DNA from: a virus
IMG/VR virus record: IMGVR_UViG_3300034374_005671
Location: 1 to 64,000 of that record
Length of the DNA: 64,000 bases
Direction: 5' to 3' (one strand)
Positions 2,291-63,538 of this stretch are shown piece after piece. How positions within the stretch are numbered: position 1 is the first letter of the stretch; the number at the start of each line of letters is the position of its first letter. The notes under the pieces were generated by a model. The model ran no database searches and had not been told where the DNA came from. It worked only from the letters and a program-made list of their open reading frames with translations. A program made the position numbers and the translations under genes.

Positions 2291-4708
2291 ATGAATTCAC
2301 GTTCTCACAATTCAGCGTATTCACGCTTGATGGTTCTCTCAGAATTGGGAGGCCAATCAGTGGCCACTGCAGGAACAGGGTCACTAAGACTTGCTAATGG
2401 GCAGGTTGGTTTATTTAGAATGGCCTCTAAAACTGCAAACGGGCCAACCGCAGTAGCAAACCTTGACGGTTACGGAGCAAAAGAATTGTTCCAAATTCAA
2501 GTTGGTACAGGTCGCACACAGGATGCTGGTAACATGACTAACAAGAACTTTTCAACAATCTCTTTCACAAGAGATGATATTCTTGATGTCACTGTTGACA
2601 CAGCTAAAGCTCCTGTATATTCTTCTGTAACTTTAGGTTACAACGGAGTAGCTGGTACTGGTATCAAACTAAAAGAAAATGAGGCTACTACAGTTTCATT
2701 AAAATTATTCGGTGAGCAACTTTCTTACCTCGGTTTCCGTGATGGAGTTGCTAATATGGAATTCAGCGTATTCTCAGGCTCTCCTGATGCTTGTGATAAC
2801 TGTTTAAATCCATGTGCTACTACTTCTTGTACTTCTATCGTAAGAGACCTAGTTGAAAACATTAGAACTTACGAACTTCGTGCTGGTTCTGATGCTGGAA
2901 CAGGTGCATCTATCAAAGTAGGTGACTTAGTAGACGTTATCGGTACTTACTCTTGTACTCCTGACTTAGTACCTTCTGCTACTACTGTTAAATACAGCCT
3001 CACAATAGAGGATGAAGGCACTGGCGAAGCATTAGCTGCAGTTGCTTCTCAATATACCGAAGATGTAGAAAGAATTTCTAGAGAAGGAATTACTTCTGTT
3101 TATCAATTAGTATCAGGAGGAGGTCTTCCTGCAGCTTTCCAAGCACCTGCTAGTATACTTATTGATGCCTCTGGAGATGAAAGAGAGGTTCGAATTCTTG
3201 AAGATTGTGATACATGCCCTGCAGGTTTCACTCAGTTTCCTGCAAGTGGGGATGGATTCCTTTACCAAGTAGTATTACCTGAAGGCGTAAATACAAGTAA
3301 CGTTCTTGCTCAACTTCAAACTGATACTGCTGTTACTGCTGCTAACTCTTCACTATTAGATACAAATACAAGAGGAACTGGTCCTGTAGGAACAGAAATC
3401 ATTATCTTGAATCTAGATGTGGAAATTACTGTTGAAGAATTAATCGCATCATTAGATAACGATGCAACATTAGCCTTGACTCCTGCTGAGTACGAAGCTT
3501 CTGCTGTTTCACCAGCTGATGCCATCTGTGTTGGCGATGTTGACTATGTAGCTACAACTGCTTGGGTTGCAGGTGAAACTTGTAATCTTTACCAAAAAAC
3601 AATTCAACTTGATGTAGACTTGGATTGTGGTCCTTTCGCTACACCAGCGGCTAAGACTACTGCTGCTAATGCTAAATTAGCTGAGTTACAAGCTATCTAT
3701 CCTGATTTAAGTGTAACGCTTAACGCTGCTAATATCGGAGATTGTAGAGCACGTTTTGACGGAGTATTGACTTCAGAACCAGTATGTGATGGTTGTGAGG
3801 TTGAAGAGCCAATCTTCCCAGCTATGCCAGATGACTATGAGTTTTCTGCTTGGTCTGAAAGAACTGTAGCAGAAGGTGAAATTACTTCTTACACTATCGC
3901 AGCAGGTACACTTTCTGTAGATGCCGCTGATGGAGGTGCAGCAGGAGCTGAAACTTTAACTCAAGGAACTTCTGCAGCATTTGTTTCTACAAGTGGTAGC
4001 GGAACAGGAGCAGTTGTAAAAGTTGAGCTTGATGCTGCAAGTAACACTGTTACTTCCGTAGCCCTTGCTGATGGAGGTGAAGGATTTGCAGTAGGAGATA
4101 CTATTTCTCTTAACATTGCTTTAGCACCATTCTCTACATCTTCAACAGGTACAATCACTCTTACTATTACAGGAGTTGGTGGAGAGTTCCCAGACGATTG
4201 CGAATGTGGTATCAAATTCGTTGCTAAGAACGCTTTCTTATGTCCTCCAGCAATGCTTGCAGAGCAAATTGGAACTTTCACTCCTAAAGGAGTTAAAATC
4301 CAAGTTTCTGGTGGTGAAGCTCCTTCAGTACTTCAAGAGGGTTACCAATATGTAACTACTCCATTCCGTGTAACTCGTCACGAAAGAGACTTTGACGGAA
4401 CTAGCTGGGGTATTAACTACGTGAAGCAAGAGAAAGCTTCTGCTGAGTACTTCGCTGGAATTTCTCCACGAATGAGCTACGCTGAAGGTTACTTGAGTGG
4501 ATTCGAAACTAAGCTTGAGCCTTGTTTACAATATGACAAGTTCACAGTTAAGTTGAGAAGAAACAACTACGCTGGAACAGCAAGCCGCAGAATGGCTGAG
4601 GAAATCAGATACGTATTCTTGATTCCTCAAGGTGCTCAGTGCGCATACCAAGACTTCATTGAAGCTCTAGGTGGAGTGACTGAATGTCCCACAGTAGCAG
4701 GAGTCTAA
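2291..4708 (+). CDS. Large structural protein (auxiliary capsid/gene-73-like), Cys-rich
   Basis: 805 aa with strong high-expression codon bias (GCT, ACT, TTC, AAC), followed by a strong terminator. Contains a GSGTGA...GGEGFAVGD beta insertion of the kind seen in marine phage structural proteins. Confidence 0.55.
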   Translation: MNSRSHNSAYSRLMVLSELGGQSVATAGTGSLRLANGQVGLFRMASKTANGPTAVANLDGYGAKELFQIQVGTGRTQDAGNMTNKNFSTISFTRDDILDVTVDTAKAPVYSSVTLGYNGVAGTGIKLKENEATTVSLKLFGEQLSYLGFRDGVANMEFSVFSGSPDACDNCLNPCATTSCTSIVRDLVENIRTYELRAGSDAGTGASIKVGDLVDVIGTYSCTPDLVPSATTVKYSLTIEDEGTGEALAAVASQYTEDVERISREGITSVYQLVSGGGLPAAFQAPASILIDASGDEREVRILEDCDTCPAGFTQFPASGDGFLYQVVLPEGVNTSNVLAQLQTDTAVTAANSSLLDTNTRGTGPVGTEIIILNLDVEITVEELIASLDNDATLALTPAEYEASAVSPADAICVGDVDYVATTAWVAGETCNLYQKTIQLDVDLDCGPFATPAAKTTAANAKLAELQAIYPDLSVTLNAANIGDCRARFDGVLTSEPVCDGCEVEEPIFPAMPDDYEFSAWSERTVAEGEITSYTIAAGTLSVDAADGGAAGAETLTQGTSAAFVSTSGSGTGAVVKVELDAASNTVTSVALADGGEGFAVGDTISLNIALAPFSTSSTGTITLTITGVGGEFPDDCECGIKFVAKNAFLCPPAMLAEQIGTFTPKGVKIQVSGGEAPSVLQEGYQYVTTPFRVTRHERDFDGTSWGINYVKQEKASAEYFAGISPRMSYAEGYLSGFETKLEPCLQYDKFTVKLRRNNYAGTASRRMAEEIRYVFLIPQGAQCAYQDFIEALGGVTECPTVAGV

Positions 4709-4730
4709 TCGACTGATTCATTAACCTAAG

Positions 4731-4758
4731 AAGGGGGAGGGTATCCTCCCCCTTTTTT
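4731..4758 (+). terminator. Rho-independent terminator
   Basis: AAGGGGGAGG-gtat-CCTCCCCCTT followed by a T tract. Confidence 0.9.
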
Positions 4759-4772
4759 ATAAATATATTATC

Positions 4773-4859
4773 ATGGCTAGTAATCCAGGACTATCAAAAT
4801 TTTTTGAAAGAATGCGTGAACTCGCAGAAAAAATTAAACAACAAAATAACGGGAAATGA
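4773..4859 (+). CDS. Small hypothetical protein (28 aa), not in the ORF track
   Basis: MASNPGLSKFFERMRELAEKIKQQNNGK*; ATGA overlap with the next gene's start. Confidence 0.5.
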   Translation: MASNPGLSKFFERMRELAEKIKQQNNGK

Positions 4860-5905
4860 GTTTATCTAAGTACACAGCGAGTACGCCCACATACGACTTC
4901 TCTATACCAAAGGAAAGAGTAATTAAACAAAATTGCAACATTCCTGTAGGGTATAAGAGACTTTCGTGTTATTTCGCAAATACTGCGGAAAATGGCGTTT
5001 ATTTTAAAGTAGGACAAGAAGGTGCAAAGACTATTGCACTTGGAGGACCTTTAACAGAAGACACAATTGTAGGAAACACTGAGACTGACTTTTCTATCGC
5101 CATCAGTACAGGTGATGATAAGAAAGGAGGTGCAGGTTTTATAGCTATTGAGAAGTTAGATGATAATGGGAAACTGCCTCAAGGTTTTCCCCTTAGAGAC
5201 TTCTTTACAATAACTGATGCTACCGCATTCCCAGGCACCCAAAAAGTAATTAATGAAGAAGGTGCAGTACTATATGTTTCTAAGTTTGAAAACGATTTAA
5301 CTAGAGGACAGTTTGCAATAAAAACAGTCGGTCTAGACTCAGAAGGAACATTAAACCTTCTAAATCCAGGTCAACCTGCTATTTATAGCACAGACATTAC
5401 AACCTCCTATGAGAGTGATGCATATTCCTTTTTAGCTATTAACAACTTAGGAAATCCTGCTACTTTTGGTACGGCAGGAAAGGCTGGTATAATTGTAAGT
5501 GCAACTTCTGTAAGAGAGGATGCAGTCATAAATGTGCTGTCTAGAACTCAGGATGCTACCAAAAATGCAGTAACTACGGTGTCTGCCGAGGATTTTACCA
5601 CGGATATAGGACATTCTTTAGTCCTGCAAGTAAATGCAGGGGTTAAAAACTTTAACTATTCTAAAGTTGTACCAAGCACTAATACCACAACACCAGTCTA
5701 TAGCTTTCCCACACCTAACACATCACCTGGAGCAAATCAAATGCTCATAACAGATAGTAACAGTGTACTTCAGTTTTCTGATATACAAGCTGTACTAGCC
5801 CTTGTACCTGCATATGTAGACAATGCTACTGCTGTTGGAGCAGGATTAGTTGTGGGTGATACCTATTATAACACAACTAGTACTACATATACTAGAGTAG
5901 TATAA
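4856..5905 (+). CDS. Putative fibre/decoration protein
   Basis: 349 aa, beta-rich and Thr/Gly-rich. N-terminal IPK-x6-C motif shared with 5917 and 8055. C-terminal YVDNATAVGAGLVVGDTYY motif. Confidence 0.5.
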   Translation: MSLSKYTASTPTYDFSIPKERVIKQNCNIPVGYKRLSCYFANTAENGVYFKVGQEGAKTIALGGPLTEDTIVGNTETDFSIAISTGDDKKGGAGFIAIEKLDDNGKLPQGFPLRDFFTITDATAFPGTQKVINEEGAVLYVSKFENDLTRGQFAIKTVGLDSEGTLNLLNPGQPAIYSTDITTSYESDAYSFLAINNLGNPATFGTAGKAGIIVSATSVREDAVINVLSRTQDATKNAVTTVSAEDFTTDIGHSLVLQVNAGVKNFNYSKVVPSTNTTTPVYSFPTPNTSPGANQMLITDSNSVLQFSDIQAVLALVPAYVDNATAVGAGLVVGDTYYNTTSTTYTRVV

Positions 5906-58142: not shown

Positions 58143-58232
58143 TCAATCTTTTTTATCGGGAAATAGGTAATCAACTAGAGCTATCACTCCAAATACAATC
58201 ACAATTATCCCACCTATTACTAAAAGTTCCAT
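58143..58232 (-). CDS. Small single-TM peptide (29 aa), not in the ORF track
   Basis: MELLVIGGIIVIVFGVIALVDYLFPDKKD*; fills the gap after the endolysin. Confidence 0.55.
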   Translation of the reverse strand: MELLVIGGIIVIVFGVIALVDYLFPDKKD

Positions 58233-58241
58233 TACTATAAT

Positions 58242-59123
58242 CTATAAACTAACTAACATGTCCATCATCTCCTGTTGGGGATGAATATCACACTTACCTG
58301 TGTTTGTGTTTGTATGGGATAGCACACCCTTAATCAAACCTCTGTACGCTTCTTCTTTCCATTCAAAAGCCTTAGCACCTTCCTTCTTAATCCATCTAGG
58401 AAGTCCCTCACGGATATCAATACCATCTCTCTCAGCAATGAAGTATAACCACTCCCGAACTTTCTCTATCTGTGCATCTGAGAACCTGTGCCACTGACTC
58501 ATACCTTTGAAAGGTTCAGCTAAAGTTACAAATTGAGAAGGGTCTGCTTTTACCCCTGCCCAAGTCTTACCTTCTTTAAGATAACCCCAGTTGCAAATTT
58601 CTAATCCTACAGAATGCTCGTGCATATACTGAGAACCATTTCTACCGATGTGCCAAGCATACGCTCCTGATGGGAATGCCTGTACCATTCTGCCATCGTA
58701 TGTATCATCGTCACCCTTAATAGAAGGACCTCCCAAAACAAACTCAGTTGCAATACGTCCTCTACTATCTCTGCCCCAATGGTCAATACACTTGTAAGGG
58801 TTATGCCATCCTGCTGTAAAGTGCAAGAACGCATACTCCTTTGTGGTAGGACCGTTTAGATACTCTCCTGTGGGCAGGTAATGAGTATCATAAGCAAACT
58901 TCGAGTCGATAGCTTTATCTACGGTCAAATCCGTATCTAGCAGACTCATCGCCTCTAGTGTCTTAGGACCAACAATCCCATCAACTACTAAACCTCTGAC
59001 CTTTTGAAAGGTCTTTACTGCATCCTCTGTTTGAGGACCAAATATGCCATCTACATCGATAGCACCCAAAAAGGACTGAATTTCCATTACCATTCGTCCT
59101 CTACTTCCCATTCTATAAACCAT
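58242..59123 (-). CDS. Endolysin: PG_binding_1 domain plus N-acetylmuramoyl-L-alanine amidase (Amidase_2)
   Basis: VDGIFGPQT...FQ...VDGIVGPKT; LHFTAG, AWHIG, SVGLEI, LSH...KCD zinc ligands. Confidence 0.85.
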   Translation of the reverse strand: MVYRMGSRGRMVMEIQSFLGAIDVDGIFGPQTEDAVKTFQKVRGLVVDGIVGPKTLEAMSLLDTDLTVDKAIDSKFAYDTHYLPTGEYLNGPTTKEYAFLHFTAGWHNPYKCIDHWGRDSRGRIATEFVLGGPSIKGDDDTYDGRMVQAFPSGAYAWHIGRNGSQYMHEHSVGLEICNWGYLKEGKTWAGVKADPSQFVTLAEPFKGMSQWHRFSDAQIEKVREWLYFIAERDGIDIREGLPRWIKKEGAKAFEWKEEAYRGLIKGVLSHTNTNTGKCDIHPQQEMMDMLVSL

Positions 59124-59376
59124 GATTGTAATCTTTATAAGTTATTGAAATCAGTTTATCTAAATAAACTCTTGCCTTCTCTAAATCCTCCAAACCATTC
59201 TTAGATTTGTGGCGAGTCACGTACTTGATAATATTCCCTTCGAAGAAATCCAAGTTGTGAGCTGCGATATAATCCCAAGTTTCTATGTTCTTGTTGTAGA
59301 ACTTAGGATGTGTAGTGCCACTCCTCTTTGGGCTGTGTGGATTATCCATTAAAGGGTCTCTAGTGTTTTGTCCCAT
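59113..59376 (-). CDS. DUF3310/SaV-like (T7 gp1.7-like nucleotide kinase domain) protein
   Basis: HPKFY...IETWDYI...FFEGNIIKYVTR..KNGLEDLEKA; start taken as ATG 59376. Confidence 0.8.
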   Translation of the reverse strand: MGQNTRDPLMDNPHSPKRSGTTHPKFYNKNIETWDYIAAHNLDFFEGNIIKYVTRHKSKNGLEDLEKARVYLDKLISITYKDYNHGL

Positions 59377-59377
59377 A

Positions 59378-59563
59378 CTATTTATTCTTTGCGACACTAT
59401 ACTCAGTATTGTTGTCTGCGTTAACATTCAAGAGGTCTACTAGTTTTTTAGCCTCTTCTTTCGATTCTAAGTTTAGTACAACTCCCAAACTGTCTAACAA
59501 ATATACGCTAGAAGAAGGTAATTGAGAGTGTACTTTAACTTTTTTTATGATTTTATATCCCAT
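59378..59563 (-). CDS. Hypothetical protein
   Basis: 61-aa ORF overlapping the upstream gene. Confidence 0.55.
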   Translation of the reverse strand: MGYKIIKKVKVHSQLPSSSVYLLDSLGVVLNLESKEEAKKLVDLLNVNADNNTEYSVAKNK

Positions 59564-60263
59564 GGGTAATATAGTGTCTACCTTTTTTAATTAAATTAAT
59601 ACTATCGCTCACAAGGGTTGAATCATCCAAGTTGATTATCAACTCAGGGTCGATAGGCACACCTAAGAATCTTGTTTCCAAGTGAAGGTGGGGACCTGTA
59701 GAACGCCCTGTGGACCCAACTAGTCCAATTGCATCCCCTGCTTCTAGTGTGTCTCCTTGTTCTACAAATAATTTTCTGTGGTGGGCATAGTAAGTCTCAA
59801 GACCATTGAAGTGTCTTATAATAACTAAGTTACCATAACCTCCGTTATAACCCCTCTTTGAATACCTTACTACTCCAGGAAACATACTTTTCGTAGTGTC
59901 CCTGTTATTGTATGCTATGTCGATACCATCGTGACTTCTGCCCCAACGCCATCCGTATCCGCTTGTCATTCTCCCATCTACAGGGTAACAATACTCGTGT
60001 TTGTGAGTCACTAAGGGAAGTGTTACAGTATCAGGGGCATCATAATCCCTGTAATGCAATCTATCCCACGAATACGTAGAATCATACAACGTATCGCCCA
60101 TAAGAACTGCTGTATCCAAATCAAACGTAGAGTCTACAATTATAGCAGTCTCTATATCGTAATAATTGTTTACAGTCTTACTGTTTAGCGATGCCCAAAC
60201 CCATAGCATCAATACAGTAATCAATACTAATTTCCAATCAATCATATTTACTTTATGTTCCAT
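59553..60263 (-). CDS. M23 family (LytM-like) zinc peptidase with N-terminal TM/signal anchor
   Basis: HDGID (HxxxD), YAH, STGPHLHLE (HxH). Confidence 0.9.
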   Translation of the reverse strand: MEHKVNMIDWKLVLITVLMLWVWASLNSKTVNNYYDIETAIIVDSTFDLDTAVLMGDTLYDSTYSWDRLHYRDYDAPDTVTLPLVTHKHEYCYPVDGRMTSGYGWRWGRSHDGIDIAYNNRDTTKSMFPGVVRYSKRGYNGGYGNLVIIRHFNGLETYYAHHRKLFVEQGDTLEAGDAIGLVGSTGRSTGPHLHLETRFLGVPIDPELIINLDDSTLVSDSINLIKKGRHYITHGI

Positions 60264-60265
60264 AA

Positions 60266-60349
60266 TTATTTTGCTTCATACCATGATGTGCCAATATTGG
60301 CTTCTGCCCCCATCTCCACTAATCCACTACTAAGATAGTAATTTCCTCC
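60266..60349 (-). repeat. Diverged duplicate of the last 27 codons plus stop of polA (other copy at 61281-61364)
   Basis: 21/27 aa identical, many synonymous differences. Confidence 0.9.
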
Positions 60350-61093
60350 TCTGCTATCCTCCACTTCTCCAAAACTTTTAATACACAATTCTACACCACC
60401 TGTCCTACATTCCGTCATACCCTCAAAATCAATAGAGGGTGTGTACTTGTATTCTTTTGTCAAACGTAATAATTTTTTTTCTAATTCCCAAATTTTAGAA
60501 GCTTCGTTTTCCACGATAGCGACTACTTTGTATTCATAAGGTAGTCTTCCTGAAAAACGTTTCTCCAAAGTATCCCCTGTTATGCCTATTTTGTAGAACA
60601 CCTCCTCATCTTTATTCAATTCTAAGATATATAATTTAGGGTTTTTTTCATTGCTCTTTTCTACCCATCTGTCTTTCTTGTAAGCAGAGTAGTAACCACA
60701 CTTAGGACAACCATGCCCCCTCTGATGGTGTAATGGTTGTTGCCAAAACTCTCCGTGGGTGGGGCAAGTAATTTTCATATCTTCTTGAGAGAGAGTAATG
60801 GTTTCGGGGTGATAAGTGTATTTACCCCCATGAACTGTTTTAAACTGTTTTATTTTTTCTAAAGGCTTTATACTATCTCTTTCTTTTATGTAATCGGCAT
60901 AACATTTTTTACAGCCTGTGTTTACACTTCTTAAATGTAATTGAGGAGAGGTTTCAAACTCAGTATTATGTTTATTACAAAAAACATTTATGCTATTTTT
61001 AGAACCTTTAATTACATCAGGATAAGAAAACTTATCACCATGCATATCTCTGAACCTTTCAATCCAGTCTTTAGTTGTCAGATACTTTCCCAT
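60266..61093 (-). CDS. Free-standing homing-endonuclease-like protein (two DUF723-like Zn modules plus a GIY-YIG-like domain) fused to a polA C-terminal remnant
   Basis: HGDKFSY/HGGKYTY repeats with CxxH...CxxC; LYIL...YKIGIT...KRF...LE; C-terminus GGNYYLSSGLVEMGAEANIGTSWYEAK. Confidence 0.75.
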   Translation of the reverse strand: MGKYLTTKDWIERFRDMHGDKFSYPDVIKGSKNSINVFCNKHNTEFETSPQLHLRSVNTGCKKCYADYIKERDSIKPLEKIKQFKTVHGGKYTYHPETITLSQEDMKITCPTHGEFWQQPLHHQRGHGCPKCGYYSAYKKDRWVEKSNEKNPKLYILELNKDEEVFYKIGITGDTLEKRFSGRLPYEYKVVAIVENEASKIWELEKKLLRLTKEYKYTPSIDFEGMTECRTGGVELCIKSFGEVEDSRGGNYYLSSGLVEMGAEANIGTSWYEAK

Positions 61094-61226
61094 TGTCTTG
61101 CTCCATTGCTTTTATTATAACCATTCTAATATAGGAAGACATATCAAGTCCTAGCTTATCAGCCGCCTTTCTTACTCTTTCTTTTAACTCAGAATCAGTT
61201 CTTACTATTATTTGTACTTCTTTCAT
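61071..61226 (-). CDS. Ribbon-helix-helix protein (RelB/DinJ/CopG-like, 51 aa), not in the ORF track
   Basis: MKEVQIIVRTDSELKERVRKAADKLGLDMSSYIRMVIIKAME: alternating beta strand, helix, G-L-x-M-S-x-Y-I-R helix. Overlaps the nuclease start. Confidence 0.75.
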   Translation of the reverse strand: MKEVQIIVRTDSELKERVRKAADKLGLDMSSYIRMVIIKAMEQDNGKVSDN

Positions 61227-61231
61227 AATTA

Positions 61232-61263
61232 CAATGTTACTACAATTTTATCAATTATCCAAA
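61232..61263 (-). promoter_or_regulatory. Bacteroidota-type promoter driving the RHH-endonuclease pair
   Basis: Minus strand TTTG-N20-TAACATTG, 5 nt before the RHH ATG. Confidence 0.55.
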
Positions 61264-61280
61264 TTTATTACAAAATACTT

Positions 61281-63305
61281 TTATTTTGCCTCGTACCAAG
61301 AGTCTCCTATATTCGCCTCTGCCTTAATATCTACTAAGCCACTTGTTAAATAGTATTGTCCACCTTTAATCATGCAGTCCTCAAGCACTTTTTTATACTC
61401 ATCTACTAGGCTTTCATCCACCTCAAGAACAAATTCATCATGGGGTATATTACATATTCTTACCTTTCGAAAATGTCCATTGTCTACTATATAATCAAAA
61501 AGTAAACAAGCGGCTCGTTTTGTCATATGTGCTGAAGTCGCTTGAACAGGGTTGTTCAAGGCCAACCTGAAGTATTTTCCTTGCCAAGAAAAGTACTTAG
61601 AAAGTTTAGGTCTCATCTTTGTATATACCTTGTATGCCTCTTTGTTTACTACGGTATATGTCTCTCCTTTCTCTTCAGCCTCTTTTTTCTTGTTAGCTTC
61701 TACTTTACCTGCCTTGTACAGCTTCTTATCAGCTTCTCCTGTAGCATCCATCCATTTTTTAAGGTCAAGGAATTGGTCAAACCAAGGAAGGTCTAATTTA
61801 AAACCATCTGCTGATTCTACCCACCCATTCTCAATGGATTCTTGCAGTTTCTTTCTGCCCCAAGTATATACTCCAGGATGTAGTTCTTTGTATAGCTGTT
61901 CTAATCGTTCCCCTTCCTTTACCTCGATATTAAGACTCTTAGCTGCTGTAAAGCCTGTCCCACCATACGAGAAACAGAAGCGAGGTGCTTTGGAGAACTG
62001 CCTTTTATCTTTATGGTTGTTTTTAATTTCATCGTCAGTTAATTCTTGCAGTTCAGGGAATATCAATCTTGCGAATGCAGAGTGTAAATCATCTCCATTC
62101 TTGATTGAGGATATCATCATTGCATCTTGGTGGAGGTCAGCACCGACCACATTTTCTTGGCCTTCGTAGTCAGCCACGACCATTTTATATCCATGTGTAG
62201 CCACAAAGCAATCCCTAGTTCTCTTATTAGCTGGAAAATTAAGAATATTAACCCCGCCACGCCTAGTAGAAATTCTAGCAGTATCCAGCACAGGATTAAA
62301 ATCAGTATAAATTCTGCCATCTTTAATTTTATTTAAAATGTTTTCTCCGTATGTAGATACATCATGCTCTGCTTGTTTGTATGTTAACCATAACTCTACG
62401 AAAGGGTGGCTACTTCTCCTAAGAACATCCTTGTGTAGAGTCTTCTTGTCAGGGTTCTCATCCGATTGTACATCAATACCAAACTCCTCAAAGATAGGAA
62501 TCATTTGTAGAGATGACGACAATAAGGGGATGATACGTGGAGAGCTATCAAACATATCTATCTGTCTGTCCCTATATTTAGGTAACTCGTCATAGACAAA
62601 TTTGACCACATCATCCTTAGCTTTTTCTAGAGCAATCTTGTCTTGCTCAATTTTATCTTTCCATTTAGCTTCTGATATTGGGATACCACACTGCTCCATA
62701 TAGGCAAGAGCTCTGATATATCGACAATGTAGCTTGAATGTTGGTACACATCCTCTGTCTCGCAACCTTTCCCCTAAAACTTTAACTAATTCTAATACTT
62801 TGTCTACGTCATTGAAAGCATATCGAATAGCTTTTGGATTTGACAATTGGGTCTTAGCAATGTTCTTTTGCTCACTCTTATCATAGCTGATACCCAACTC
62901 ACGCTCCATCACAAAACCAAAACCGTGTCTTGTAATTAAACCGTTTCCGTTGTAAAGTATTTTACTTGCAATAAATGTATCGTAAACTTTTTTAGGTACA
63001 AAGTTATATTTGTATAACCACCCAAGGTCGAATGTAAGGTTGTGACCAACCAATGTCTTGCCTTCCAGGAAAGGAGCCACCTCATCAAATGTTATCTCTC
63101 CTCCTAATTGTTGAAGGTCTATAATATAGTTGTCCTTCCCTGTACCTATCTGCACAGAGAACATATGACCGTCTATAGGTTTGAGGGAGGTAGTCTCCGA
63201 GTCAAACGCAATAACATCAGGTAGCACCATATCTTCTAAGGTGCAATAATTGTACGCTCCTATCTTCTCAAAGAAAGGACGATTGTTTGTTATGATATAA
63301 TTCAT
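61281..63305 (-). CDS. polA: DNA polymerase family A with 3'-5' exonuclease domain
   Basis: ExoI FDSET, ExoII GHNLTFD, ExoIII YAFND; motif A ADYEGQE, motif B RQFSKAPRFCFSYG, motif C IPHDE. Confidence 0.95.
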   Translation of the reverse strand: MNYIITNNRPFFEKIGAYNYCTLEDMVLPDVIAFDSETTSLKPIDGHMFSVQIGTGKDNYIIDLQQLGGEITFDEVAPFLEGKTLVGHNLTFDLGWLYKYNFVPKKVYDTFIASKILYNGNGLITRHGFGFVMERELGISYDKSEQKNIAKTQLSNPKAIRYAFNDVDKVLELVKVLGERLRDRGCVPTFKLHCRYIRALAYMEQCGIPISEAKWKDKIEQDKIALEKAKDDVVKFVYDELPKYRDRQIDMFDSSPRIIPLLSSSLQMIPIFEEFGIDVQSDENPDKKTLHKDVLRRSSHPFVELWLTYKQAEHDVSTYGENILNKIKDGRIYTDFNPVLDTARISTRRGGVNILNFPANKRTRDCFVATHGYKMVVADYEGQENVVGADLHQDAMMISSIKNGDDLHSAFARLIFPELQELTDDEIKNNHKDKRQFSKAPRFCFSYGGTGFTAAKSLNIEVKEGERLEQLYKELHPGVYTWGRKKLQESIENGWVESADGFKLDLPWFDQFLDLKKWMDATGEADKKLYKAGKVEANKKKEAEEKGETYTVVNKEAYKVYTKMRPKLSKYFSWQGKYFRLALNNPVQATSAHMTKRAACLLFDYIVDNGHFRKVRICNIPHDEFVLEVDESLVDEYKKVLEDCMIKGGQYYLTSGLVDIKAEANIGDSWYEAK

Positions 63306-63538
63306 TCATCAGGATTCTCGTCAGGGGTCAAACAATCCCCTTTAAAAAATATCTCCTTGCTTAGAACTTCTTCTAGCTGTAATAACTCATCATCTTCCAA
63401 ATCATACACATCGATGTAGTCAGGAACTGAACCTGTAGCTAACAGTCCTGCTAATCTAACTAGGTCATCTTCACATCTAACCTCTTTCCCATATATGTAA
63501 AGACAGCAGTCTTTTACTTCAAATTTTTTACTTGACAT
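63302..63538 (-). CDS. Small acidic hypothetical protein
   Basis: 78 aa, coupled to both neighbours. Confidence 0.6.
   Translation of the reverse strand: MSSKKFEVKDCCLYIYGKEVRCEDDLVRLAGLLATGSVPDYIDVYDLEDDELLQLEEVLSKEIFFKGDCLTPDENPDE

What the first reader, a model, noticed from the sequence alone, without database searches (positions are those of the whole stretch)
60266..61364. Endonuclease cassette that duplicates the C-terminus of the DNA polymerase
Seen: polA ends GGQYYLTSGLVDIKAEANIGDSWYEAK* (61281-61364), and the downstream nuclease ends GGNYYLSSGLVEMGAEANIGTSWYEAK* (60266-60349). They are 21/27 identical, but many identical residues use different codons (ggt/gga, tta/ctt, ggc/gga, gta/gtg, gag/gaa, gcg/gcc, ata/att, gga/ggc, tct/tca, tac/tat), so the two copies are distinct alleles rather than a fresh duplication. 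The remnant continues upstream in another frame: 60378-60352 reads KVLEKWRIA versus polA KVLEDCMIK, and a 2-nt offset joins the nuclease frame to the old polymerase tail. Inference: a free-standing homing element entered the 3' end of an essential gene, supplying a recoded replacement terminus (possibly cleavage-resistant) and capturing the displaced terminus and stop. If the tail is functional it could also tether the nuclease to the replisome.
Basis: partly seen in the sequence, partly recalled or inferred. Interest (0 to 1): 0.8.

Follow-up and report, generated by a model that had tools for sequence, protein, structure and literature searches.

The report
Endonuclease cassette replacing polymerase gene end
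A selfish nuclease gene and a small regulator gene sit in the end of a freshwater phage's DNA polymerase gene; they brought a foreign copy of that gene's last 60-80 codons and left the original end downstream, a layout known from fungal mitochondria and seen here still polymorphic in nature.

Summary

- **Empty site.** Seven related phage contigs lack the cassette. In all of them polA abuts the M23 peptidase gene, and their polA tail matches the window's downstream copy. The last 84 nt are 84/84 identical to L003.
- **Foreign tract.** It runs from about 61469 (61530 against L001/L002) to 60380. It holds a diverged replacement for the last 63-83 polA codons, a 54-nt spacer, a 51-aa ribbon-helix-helix (RHH) gene and a nuclease with two zinc fingers and a GIY-YIG/T5orf172-like domain.
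- **Remnant.** The native last 112 nt of polA (60379-60266) survive downstream. A 2-nt insertion puts them in frame as the nuclease's last residues.
- **Not an artefact.** Independent metagenome contigs cross both junctions. One contig from the same lake sample carries the empty site.
- **Recurrence.** The same nuclease family shows the same gene-end duplication in another phage (L047). It pairs with an RHH gene in two more (L064, L065).
- **Tether idea.** It has no support. The tail is part of the polymerase palm and is modelled as disordered on the nuclease.

Cleavage and homing are inferred, not shown. The layout is known from fungal mitochondrial mobile ORFs. This scan has already reported it in at least eight other genomes. 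I class it as a clean new member of a known kind.

The parts
61281..63305 (-). Family A DNA polymerase gene (674 aa, 3'-5' exonuclease plus polymerase domains), now a hybrid of a native body and a foreign 3' end.
   Evidence: Pfam DNA_pol_A E=4.5e-43 and DNA_pol_A_exo1 E=6.2e-22. Matches the Klenow fragment at E=8e-31. 97% nt identity to L001 upstream of 61530.
61281..61530 (-). Foreign replacement 3' end of polA, including motif C (HDE). The minimal tract is 61281-61469, measured against the nearest strain (P0036 and the empty-site contig in X2). The maximal tract reaches 61530, measured against L001/L002.
   Evidence: Identity to L001/L002 falls from about 97% to 63-73%. The tract is 70-75% nt identical to any relative, with dS saturated and dN 0.13-0.19. 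P0036 has a 99.5% identical body and diverges only after ...DNGHF. The X2 joint lies at 61470.
61227..61280 (-). A 54-nt spacer between the polA stop and the RHH start. It holds a TTTG-N20-TAACATTG promoter-like motif. Function is not established.
   Evidence: Sequence read. No terminator was found, and the strict Bacteroidota promoter pattern is no more frequent in the window than chance.
61071..61226 (-). A 51-aa ribbon-helix-helix gene that overlaps the nuclease start by 23 nt. It is probably a DNA-binding regulator of the cassette.
   Evidence: Weak Pfam hits to NikA-like, RelB and CopG, E 1.7e-4 to 7e-4, all below the curated cut-offs. PHROG Arc-like repressor E=2.8e-4. Homologues lie directly upstream of family nucleases in L064 and L065, phmmer E=4e-7 and 2.7e-6.
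60380..61093 (-). Native body of the nuclease gene (238 aa). It has two treble-clef zinc-finger modules (about aa 1-60 and 75-135) and a GIY-YIG/T5orf172-like catalytic domain (about aa 140-245).
   Evidence: phrog_681 endonuclease E=1e-35 over aa 8-230. DUF4379 E=4.7e-6. T5orf172 matches 18 of 24 and DUF723 17 of 24 family members. The AlphaFold model has pLDDT 80.9. Best structural matches are Slx1 and HIGLE at Z about 6, UvrC GIY-YIG at 3.8 and I-TevI at 3.4. All family-invariant residues are present.
60371..60379 (-). Right junction. The 9-nt stretch AAAAGTTTT is shared by the nuclease's own 3' end (IKSF, compare WIKNF and WIKDF in L005) and the polA codons KKVL. It is a likely microhomology crossover point.
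   Evidence: DNA alignment with cassette-less alleles. L005 nuclease C-terminus and its duplicate. BLAST boundary at 60379/60380.
60266..60379 (-). Displaced native polA 3' end: 112 nt plus a 2-nt insertion, including the native stop codon. It is read as the last 37 or so codons of the nuclease ORF. The last 27 codons are in the old polA frame.
   Evidence: Aligns to L001 3172-3283. The last 84 nt are 84/84 identical to L003. Natural homologues of the nuclease end 2-20 aa after the TEC motif and have no such tail.
60350..60361 (-). Cluster of changes in the remnant: TGTATGATAG--AT in empty-site alleles becomes TGGAGGATAGCAGA here. The 2-nt insertion restores the polA frame. It may be a repair scar or an immunity change.
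   Evidence: Alignment. The empty-site contig in X2 lacks the bases at 60351 and 60353. P0002 carries the same change.
59553..60263 (-). M23 peptidase gene. Its ATG lies 2 nt after the shared stop codon (TAATTATG), exactly as in cassette-less phages.
   Evidence: Pfam Peptidase_M23 E=6.3e-28. The same junction is present in L001-L004, L012, L016 and L018.

Best explanation
A two-gene mobile cassette was copied from an unsampled, diverged relative into the 3' end of this phage's DNA polymerase gene. The cassette is a small RHH regulator followed by a free-standing homing endonuclease of the zinc-finger plus T5orf172/GIY-YIG type.

**Shown**
- The incoming DNA begins inside polA, 189-250 nt before the stop. 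It therefore supplies a foreign but functional-looking replacement for the last 63-83 codons.
- It continues through a 54-nt spacer, the RHH gene and the nuclease gene.
- It ends at a 9-nt microhomology, where it joins the recipient's polA 112 nt before its stop.
- The native polA end was displaced downstream and kept its stop codon and its 2-nt spacing to the M23 gene.
- A 2-nt insertion in the remnant puts its last 27 codons in frame with the nuclease.

**Inferred**
- The nuclease cuts cassette-less polA near the junction during co-infection.
- Break repair then copies the cassette and co-converts the flank.
- Both polA-end copies in the carrier differ from the target and so escape cutting.
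- The RHH protein represses or times cassette expression.
- The polymerase-derived tail on the nuclease is most likely a by-product of where the junction and the stop codon fell.
For: - **Empty site.** Seven relatives have polA directly followed by M23, and all but L012 have a native-type tail far closer to the window's downstream copy.
- **Insert boundaries.** The insert is 61280..60380 and the remnant is 60379..60266.
- **Foreign origin of the new end.** It is 70-75% nt identical to any relative, with saturated dS. The upstream 600 nt are 97% identical to L001. The best tail in 5.8 billion proteins is only 83% identical.
- **Near-isogenic strain.** P0036 polA has a 99.5% identical body and a native-type tail.
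- **Independent assemblies.** L019 and L020, from two other samples, are 99.8-99.9% identical to the window; L019 spans both junctions and L020 the left one. Contigs from four freshwater runs cross both junctions with 0-1 differences. One X2 contig joins 60379 to 61470, skips the cassette and lacks the 2-nt insertion.
- **Nuclease class.** phrog_681 E=1e-35. Family-wide T5orf172, DUF723 and DUF4379 hits. GIY-YIG folds head the structural matches. All family-invariant residues are kept.
- **Multi-copy, free-standing family.** The related phage genome G003 holds three copies. One starts inside the last codons of its polA.
- **Second case of the layout.** L047 has an 84-nt duplication of a different host gene's end at 74% identity, flanking a family nuclease.
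- **RHH pairing.** The RHH-nuclease pair recurs in L064 and L065.
- **Persistence.** P0002, a diverged allele, carries the same junction and tail, so the fused form has lasted through some divergence.
- **Precedent.** The architecture and its interpretation match fungal mitochondrial mobile ORFs (PMC3630166). Phage T5orf172 homing endonucleases with zinc-finger repeats sit near essential genes and at boundaries of genetic exchange (PMC10448857).
Against: - No cleavage, target site or homing was shown.
- The window nuclease itself matches Pfam T5orf172 only at E=0.024, below the cut-off. The structural Z-scores of about 6 are middling.
- The tree does not resolve whether the nuclease next to polA in L005 is the window nuclease's closest relative.
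- None of 80 more distant family members lies near a polA, so polA-end specificity rests on two loci.
- The donor lineage was not found.
- The right junction is illegitimate (microhomology), so the founding event could have been ordinary recombination without nuclease action.
- The cause of the 2-nt insertion and three substitutions is unknown.
Confidence: 0.75

Rival explanations
1. Passenger model. The layout arose from a single illegitimate (unequal) crossover between two co-infecting phages, with no role for the nuclease. The nuclease gene was carried along and may be inactive or serve another purpose.
For: The right junction is a 9-nt microhomology rather than a homologous crossover. The polA/M23 boundary is a mosaic boundary in this phage group in any case: L003 and L004 polA are about 77% identical to the window, while the downstream block is 89-91% identical. 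No cleavage data exist.
Against: The same nuclease family shows the same gene-end duplication at a different gene in L047. A homologue sits at the polA end of a 57%-identical phage. The family is multi-copy and free-standing. All invariant residues are intact. The cassette is polymorphic within single samples, as expected for an element that is spreading.
Confidence: 0.12
2. The frame-restoring 2-nt insertion was selected because it lets ribosomes translating the nuclease ORF terminate at the native polA stop, 2 nt before the M23 start codon. That would preserve the termination-reinitiation coupling that M23 has in cassette-less phages. This reading is compatible with the best explanation. It concerns only why the tail is in frame.
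For: Every cassette-less relative has the tight TAATTATG polA-stop/M23-start junction, and the window keeps it exactly. Without the insertion, the nuclease frame would stop at a TAG about 64 nt before the M23 ATG, as read from the sequence. P0002 keeps the same insertion.
Against: One frame in three would be right by chance. In L047 the remnant is not in frame with the nuclease. There are no expression data. The three substitutions that accompany the insertion are not explained.
Confidence: 0.2
3. The polymerase-derived tail is a functional module of the nuclease. It might tether the nuclease to the replisome or to polA.
For: The tail's amino-acid sequence is identical in the window and in the diverged allele P0002, whose nuclease body differs at about 5-7% of residues.
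Against: The segment corresponds to the last palm-domain strands after motif C of family A polymerases, which is an integral part of the fold rather than a docking peptide. It is modelled with pLDDT below 50 on the nuclease. At the body's divergence rate, zero changes in 27 residues is not significant. The DNA is also identical to the polA ends of living relatives, so it carries no signal of independent selection. No other family member carries such a tail.
Confidence: 0.05
4. The RHH-nuclease pair is a toxin-antitoxin-like or inter-phage competition module. The nuclease would attack rival phages or host DNA and the RHH protein would act as antidote. It would not be primarily a homing element.
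For: The gene order and 23-nt overlap resemble type II toxin-antitoxin operons. The RHH protein gives weak RelB and CopG-antitoxin hits. The pair recurs in L064 and L065. Homing endonucleases are known to mediate competition between co-infecting phages (PMC11620839, abstract only).
Against: The RHH protein is only 51 aa, with about 9 residues after the second helix, which leaves little room for a toxin-binding extension. Most family nucleases have no RHH partner: 3 of 82 loci have one. Competition and homing are not exclusive.
Confidence: 0.08
5. The layout is an assembly chimera of two strains.
For: Two diverged copies of one sequence within 1.1 kb are a classic cause of misassembly.
Against: L019 (1375 nt, a different sample) spans both junctions at 99.93% identity. 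L020 spans the left junction. Contigs from four runs of four samples cross both junctions with 0-1 differences. P0002 is an independently called protein with the same fusion.
Confidence: 0.01

Closest known systems
Mobile endonuclease ORFs (mORFs) of fungal mitochondria that create hybrid genes: Allomyces macrogynus atp6; Glomus sp. atp6, atp9, cox2 and nad3; Rhizopus oryzae atp9; Mortierella verticillata cox2 (PMC3630166)
   Same: An endonuclease ORF sits in the 3' part of an essential gene. It arrives with a foreign in-frame replacement C-terminus. The native C-terminus is displaced downstream and stays close to that of near relatives, while the inserted one is much more diverged. [quoted passage not shown] One of the mitochondrial cases (atp9) has a GIY-YIG nuclease.
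   Different: The host here is a dsDNA phage, not an organelle. The nuclease is of the zinc-finger plus T5orf172 type. The cassette carries an RHH gene. The displaced host end is fused to the 3' end of the nuclease, rather than the nuclease being fused to the host gene. Carrier and empty-site alleles coexist in the same environmental samples.
Free-standing GIY-YIG and HNH homing endonucleases of T-even phages (SegB, SegF, SegG, MobE): 'intronless homing' with co-conversion of flanking markers (PMC2988022, PMC2330249, PMC2790892)
   Same: The nuclease gene is free-standing, lies between or next to essential genes and overlaps the upstream ORF. It spreads by break repair in co-infection and co-converts flanking sequence. 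The carrier is immune through sequence differences at the target.
   Different: The T4-type elements sit between intact genes. The review I searched (PMC2988022) does not mention a retained duplicate of a gene end. Here 63-83 codons of the neighbouring gene were replaced and 112 nt of the old end were retained and translated.
T5orf172 homing endonucleases of ICP1 and other phages, with CapR, DUF723 or DUF4397 zinc-finger repeats (Barth, Dunham and Seed 2023, PMC10448857)
   Same: The domain layout is the same: repeated zinc-finger DNA-binding modules followed by a C-terminal T5orf172 domain. They lie next to essential genes, including replisome genes, and at boundaries of genetic exchange. In-frame loss of a repeat occurs there (gp174*) and here (P0002 lacks part of module 2).
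   Different: In the passages of that paper that I searched for 'duplication' and related terms, I found no replacement of a gene end with a retained remnant and no RHH partner. I did not read the whole paper. The window protein itself scores below the Pfam T5orf172 cut-off.
Aeromonas phage Aeh1 nrdA split by mobE ('genes in pieces', Friedrich et al. 2007, cited in PMC2988022)
   Same: A free-standing homing endonuclease gene entered the coding region of an essential phage gene, which still works.
   Different: In Aeh1 the host gene is split into two expressed halves that reassemble. Here the host gene stays whole because the element brings a replacement end, and the old end is redundant. This comparison rests on the citation and on my own knowledge. 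I did not read the paper.

Membership tests
T5orf172 subfamily of GIY-YIG nucleases (phage homing endonucleases) | The catalytic domain matches the T5orf172 or MUG113 profile. | tested here: inconclusive
   The window protein scores PF10544 E=0.024 (15.6 bits, cut-off 20) and PF13455 E=0.043. Among its aligned homologues, 18 of 24 match T5orf172 (best E=3.7e-6) and 9 of 24 match MUG113.
T5orf172 subfamily of GIY-YIG nucleases (phage homing endonucleases) | The catalytic domain has a GIY-YIG fold. | tested here: met
   For model residues about 141-265, the best structural matches are Slx1 (6seh_C Z 6.1, rmsd 3.8, 102 aligned; 7cq2_A Z 5.7) and At-HIGLE (7wme_A Z 6.1, rmsd 3.1, 95 aligned). Lower matches are UvrC GIY-YIG (1ycz Z 3.8) and I-TevI (1ln0 Z 3.4). 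The Z-scores are middling, but GIY-YIG entries recur near the top. Foldseek with the whole three-domain model found nothing.
T5orf172 subfamily of GIY-YIG nucleases (phage homing endonucleases) | The conserved core motif residues (Tyr...Tyr-x-Gly, Arg, Glu) are intact. | tested here: met
   Y155, K168-I169-G170, R179, E205 and E228 are invariant in 24 sequences, and Y167 is nearly invariant. All are present in the window protein. Assigning them to catalytic roles is by analogy only.
T5orf172 subfamily of GIY-YIG nucleases (phage homing endonucleases) | N-terminal repeated zinc-finger DNA-binding modules (DUF723, DUF4379 or CapR-like). | tested here: met
   PF14311 E=4.7e-6, above its cut-off. 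Two modules have invariant C39/H42/C61/C64 and C110/H113/C129/C132. The model shows two similar modules.
Homing endonuclease gene (functional definition) | Presence/absence polymorphism at one site, with sequence exchange in the flanks. | tested here: met
   Seven empty-site relatives, plus an empty-site contig in the same sample as the carrier. The flank shows a foreign tract of 189-250 nt.
Homing endonuclease gene (functional definition) | Site-specific cleavage of the empty allele, and nuclease-dependent preferential inheritance. | not testable with these tools
   This needs purified protein and phage crosses.
Gene-end-replacing mobile endonuclease ORFs (mORF type) | The endonuclease ORF is inserted in the 3' part of a host gene together with a foreign in-frame replacement end. 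| tested here: met
   The hybrid polA stays open, with motif C and the C-terminal WYEAK intact.
Gene-end-replacing mobile endonuclease ORFs (mORF type) | The native end is retained downstream and is closer to relatives than the inserted end. | tested here: met
   In six of seven relatives the old copy is 79-84/84 nt identical to their polA end, against 57-61/84 for the new copy; in L012 the figures are 68 and 66.
Type II toxin-antitoxin pair (RHH antitoxin plus toxin) | An RHH antitoxin with a toxin-binding extension, encoded upstream of and overlapping a toxin of a known family. | tested here: inconclusive
   RHH-type hits are weak and below the curated cut-offs (RelB E=5e-4, CopG_antitoxin E=7e-4, NikA-like E=1.7e-4). 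The protein is 51 aa with a short C-terminal tail. The 23-nt overlap is present. Binding was not tested.

The most novel reading that the evidence does not exclude
RHH-controlled T5orf172 nucleases may be a distinct class of phage mobile element. They would invade the coding 3' ends of essential genes without an intron or intein by carrying a replacement gene end. In this instance the captured polymerase tail may also have been kept in frame by selection, either to preserve translational coupling to the downstream M23 lysis gene or as a polymerase-derived peptide that acts on the replisome.
Probability: 0.15. Interest if true: 0.65.

Novelty: new member of a known kind. Interest (0 to 1): 0.45.

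Why it matters
- **How the invasion works.** A free-standing homing endonuclease can enter the coding end of an essential phage replication gene without an intron or intein, because the element brings its own replacement gene end. This helps explain why nuclease genes mark mosaic boundaries in phage genomes.
- **A testable system.** Carrier and empty-site alleles coexist in the same lake samples. The two immune copies and the empty target differ at a small, defined set of positions around the junction. The target site, the immunity changes and the role of the RHH partner can therefore be tested with ordinary cleavage and binding assays.
- **An annotation warning.** The last 27 residues of the 275-aa 'nuclease' are polymerase sequence (its last ~37 codons are displaced polA DNA), and the polymerase is a hybrid. 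Tree building or strain typing that uses the polA 3' end would be misled.

Tried and rejected
- **The look-up of encoding contigs was closed.** I could not obtain the DNA or context of P0002, P0035, P0036 or the other database homologues.
- **No close relatives of the cassette genes in IMG/VR.** Searches with the nuclease and with the RHH protein found nothing. The one metagenome scan returned only two near-identical contigs.
- **Donor not found.** The best tail match in IMG/VR is L012 at 80% aa. The best in the large protein database is P0035 at 83% aa.
- **No DNA match to deposited phages.** Protein matches to deposited phages are only about 28% identical, to crAss-like phages.
- **Foldseek found nothing** with the whole three-domain model against the PDB.
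- **PADLOC gave no hit** for the nuclease or the RHH protein.
- **polA is not a general neighbour.** None of 80 distant family loci has a polA within 4 kb.
- **The family tree is star-like.** It does not say whether the L005 nuclease is the window nuclease's sister. A slower tree run did not finish.
- **L005 has no remnant of its polA end** after its nuclease.
- **No support for a promoter or terminator.** The sigma-70 scan was at chance level, no terminator was found, and the strict TTTG-N18-21-TAnnTTTG pattern occurs at chance frequency in the window. The cassette promoter remains a guess.
- **Contig depths are only a weak hint.** Single cassette contigs have about a third to a half of the depth of the flanking contigs in four runs. 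Logan depths are one figure per contig, so I do not use them as evidence.
- **No signal of selection on the fused tail.** It is identical to living polA ends.
- **Complex prediction was not used.** I make no binding claim.

Full report
**1. The observation**

All features lie on the minus strand.

- polA runs 63305..61281 (674 aa) and ends ...KVLEDCMIKGGQYYLTSGLVDIKAEANIGDSWYEAK*.
- After a 54-nt spacer comes a 51-aa ORF (61226..61071).
- Overlapping that ORF by 23 nt is a 275-aa ORF (61093..60266). It ends ...CIKSFGEVEDSRGGNYYLSSGLVEMGAEANIGTSWYEAK*.
- Two bases after that stop, the M23 peptidase gene begins.

The two 84-nt ends share 61/84 nt and 21/27 residues. Eleven codons differ only synonymously. 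In another frame, 60378-60352 reads KVLEKWRIA against polA KVLEDCMIK.

**2. Empty sites and which copy is native**

IMG/VR holds seven relatives without the cassette.

| Loci | Relationship to the window |
|---|---|
| L001, L002 | about 92% nt identity over polA |
| L003, L004 | about 77% nt identity over polA |
| L012, L016, L018 | partial contigs |

- In every one, polA is followed 2 nt later by the same M23 gene (TAATTATG).
- In four of them (L001, L003, L004, L018) polA ends ...KCMIDGGNYYLSSGLVEMGAEANIGTSWYEAK*, exactly the window's downstream copy; L002 and L016 differ from it by one and two residues, and L012 carries a more diverged tail.
- The window's downstream 84 nt are 84/84 identical to L003 and 79-82/84 to L001, L002, L004, L016 and L018. 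The polA-attached copy is only 57-61/84 identical to those.
- BLAST places the insert at 61280..60380 (901 nt). The retained native end is 60379..60266, which equals the last 112 nt of L001 polA plus 2 nt.

**3. The foreign tract is longer than the duplication**

- Window polA is about 97% identical to L001 and L002 down to about 61530. It then drops to 63-73%.
- Over the last 252 nt it is 70-75% identical to every relative, with L012 the closest. Synonymous sites are saturated and dN is 0.13-0.19. The preceding 600 nt are 97.3% identical to L001.
- P0036, a database polA with a 99.5% identical body, shares the window's AHMTKRAAC...DNGHF. It switches to a native-type tail only after that point.
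- The same breakpoint, about 61469, appears as the joint and as loose ends in the sequencing runs.
- The minimal import is therefore about 61469..60380. The 61470-61530 segment is itself polymorphic among strains.
- The donor lineage is unsampled. The best tail match anywhere is 83% aa (P0035).

**4. It is not an artefact, and it is polymorphic in nature**

- L019 (1375 nt, a different JGI sample) spans both junctions at 99.93% identity. L020 (a third sample) spans the left junction.
- In Logan contigs of four freshwater metagenome runs from four samples, contigs cross the right junction (X2, X4, X10) and the left breakpoint (X1, X4) with 0-1 differences.
- In X2, a 2081-nt contig joins 60379 to 61470. 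It skips the cassette, has 77 other letters between the two sides and lacks the two bases at 60351 and 60353. This is the empty-site allele in the same sample as the carrier.
- Two alleles of the nuclease gene, 13 differences in 190 nt, coexist in X1 and X4.
- P0002, a 240-aa protein from another JGI sample, is a diverged allele with about 94% identity over the aligned part. It has an in-frame loss within the second zinc-finger module and the same junction and tail (...SFREMEDSRGGNYY...).
- The fused form therefore arose once and has persisted.

**5. What the cassette encodes**

*The nuclease*
- It matches PHROG 681 (endonuclease, E=1e-35) over residues 8-230.
- It matches Pfam DUF4379 (treble-clef zinc finger, above the cut-off).
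- Of 24 aligned family members, 18 match T5orf172 and 17 match DUF723. The window protein itself reaches only E=0.024 for T5orf172.
- An AlphaFold model (pLDDT 80.9) shows two similar zinc-finger modules and a beta-beta-alpha-beta-alpha domain at residues 140-245.
- The best structural matches of that domain are GIY-YIG nucleases: Slx1 and HIGLE at Z about 6, UvrC at 3.8 and I-TevI at 3.4.
- All family-invariant residues are present.
- This is the architecture described for phage T5orf172 homing endonucleases (PMC10448857).
- Natural homologues end 2-20 residues after the conserved TEC motif. Only the window protein and P0002 carry the extra polymerase-derived residues. In the model, those residues have pLDDT below 50.

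*The 51-aa ORF*
- It is RHH-like, with weak NikA, RelB and CopG hits and a PHROG Arc-like repressor hit.
- Homologues lie directly upstream of family nucleases in L064 and L065, 2-4 nt before the nuclease start.
- The RHH-nuclease pair is thus a recurring module, though a minority one: 3 of 82 loci.

**6. Family behaviour**

- G003 is the complete 130-kb genome of a phage whose polA is 57% identical to the window's. It has three paralogues of the nuclease.
- One paralogue (36% identical, E=1e-41) starts inside the last codons of that phage's polA.
- None of 80 more distant members lies near a polA.
- The tree is unresolved, so a shared polA-end specificity is suggestive only.
- A blind test of the 80 loci for duplicated flanks found one clear second case. 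In L047, the last 84 nt of a different upstream gene (3911-3994) recur at 74% identity immediately after the nuclease (4967-5050). They are complete to the stop codon but are not fused to the nuclease.
- Gene-end replacement therefore recurs in this nuclease family. Fusion of the remnant to the nuclease does not.

**7. The junction**

- The window reads ...ATTAAAAGTTTTGGAGAAGTG... here.
- The L005 nuclease and its own downstream duplicate have WIKNF and WIKDF at this position.
- Empty-site polA has ...AAAAAAGTTTTGGAGAAGTG....
- The 9 nt AAAAGTTTT (60379-60371) are thus shared by both parents. I read this as a microhomology joint.
- This fits a founding event in which the donor had no homology to the recipient downstream of the nuclease.
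- Ten to thirty nt further on, the remnant differs from all empty-site alleles: TGTATGATAG--AT has become TGGAGGATAGCAGA. The next 84 nt are unchanged.
- Without the 2-nt insertion, the nuclease frame would end at a TAG ten codons later.

**8. Mechanism**

*Shown:* the presence/absence polymorphism, the foreign replacement end, the retained native end, the microhomology joint, the intact nuclease motifs and the recurrence of the layout and of the RHH pairing.

*Inferred:*
- The nuclease cuts empty-site polA near the junction during co-infection.
- Repair copies the cassette. The left arm is polA, with variable co-conversion endpoints. The right arm is now the remnant plus M23.
- Both copies in the carrier escape cutting because they differ from the target.
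- The RHH protein regulates the cassette, by analogy with I-TevI autorepression and the overlap-limited translation of the seg and mob genes (PMC2988022).

*Three readings of the in-frame tail:*
- It is a by-product. I favour this.
- It was selected because it keeps termination next to the M23 start codon.
- It is functional on the protein. This is the least likely reading. The segment is the last palm strands after motif C of family A polymerases (window residues 580-645 align to Klenow 517-580 of 605), and it is modelled as disordered.

**9. Comparison with what is known**

- The architecture matches fungal mitochondrial mobile ORFs point for point: Allomyces atp6 and Glomus atp6, atp9, cox2 and nad3 (PMC3630166).
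- Free-standing phage homing endonucleases with co-conversion are textbook (PMC2988022).
- T5orf172 nucleases at boundaries of genetic exchange are described (PMC10448857).
- In a limited literature search I found no phage report of a retained gene-end duplicate.
- This scan has already logged the same layout in at least eight other genomes, mostly phages. I did not check those reports.
- I therefore class this as a new member of a known kind. It has three modest twists: the RHH partner, the in-frame capture of the polymerase tail, and live polymorphism in nature.

**10. Limits**

- No cleavage, binding or expression data exist.
- Logan contig depths were not used as evidence.

Noticed in passing
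L047:3911-3994 and L047:4967-5050: This is a second case of the same layout in the same nuclease family. The last 84 nt of a 130-aa upstream gene are duplicated at 74% identity immediately after the nuclease (3992-4972). The duplicate is complete to the stop codon and is not fused to the nuclease. An RHH homologue also lies about 770 nt upstream on the opposite strand (about 3095-3226).
   Followed up: partly
L064:3815-3946 and L065:3874-4005: Small RHH genes homologous to the window's 51-aa ORF lie 2-4 nt upstream of family nucleases in two unrelated viral contigs. RHH plus nuclease is therefore a recurring two-gene module.
   Followed up: partly
L005:8700-8925: In the 130-kb relative, the nuclease that follows polA has its own C-terminal region duplicated. 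TECRSQLDFTWIKNFIE lies inside the ORF, and LECLSEIDLNWIKDFITEKTNTLQN* lies about 20 nt after its stop in another frame. This suggests an insertion or rearrangement at the nuclease 3' end.
   Followed up: no
L049:4926-5117: A family nuclease (3992-4744) is followed by a 63-aa fragment of a second nuclease of the same family (...YKPKIGFNGSGTECF...). The flanking sequence also shows a short duplication (E=2e-7). This may reflect nested or successive invasions.
   Followed up: no
window 58146-58242, compared with L003:10049-11182: L003, L004, L012, L016 and L018 carry an extra gene of about 372 aa (it begins MKKIGLNMIVKDESKVIKRLLDS...) between the amidase gene and the next gene. The window, L001 and L002 lack it. 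This is a second presence/absence polymorphism 2 kb from the cassette.
   Followed up: no
window 59113-59427: The DUF3310 gene comes in 104-aa and 87-aa forms among close relatives. L002, L012 and L016 lack a 17-residue stretch near the N-terminus (QNTRDPLMDNPH...).
   Followed up: no
window 59400-63400, compared with L003 and L004: The polA/M23 junction is a mosaic boundary. L003 and L004 polA are 74-78% identical to the window, but from the last 100 nt or so of polA onward (M23 and the downstream genes) identity is 89-91%.
   Followed up: partly
window 60548-60737 and 60962-61148 (runs X1, X2, X4): Two alleles of the nuclease and RHH region coexist in single samples. They differ at 13 of 190 nt and at 12-16 of 136-187 nt. 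The second allele may be the P0002-like form that lacks part of zinc-finger module 2.
   Followed up: no
G003 (genome of L005): C1:105512-105973 and C1:110289-110789: Two more paralogues of the nuclease family lie in the same 130-kb phage genome. One overlaps the start of a DEDD-exonuclease-like gene (FFDIET motif).
   Followed up: no
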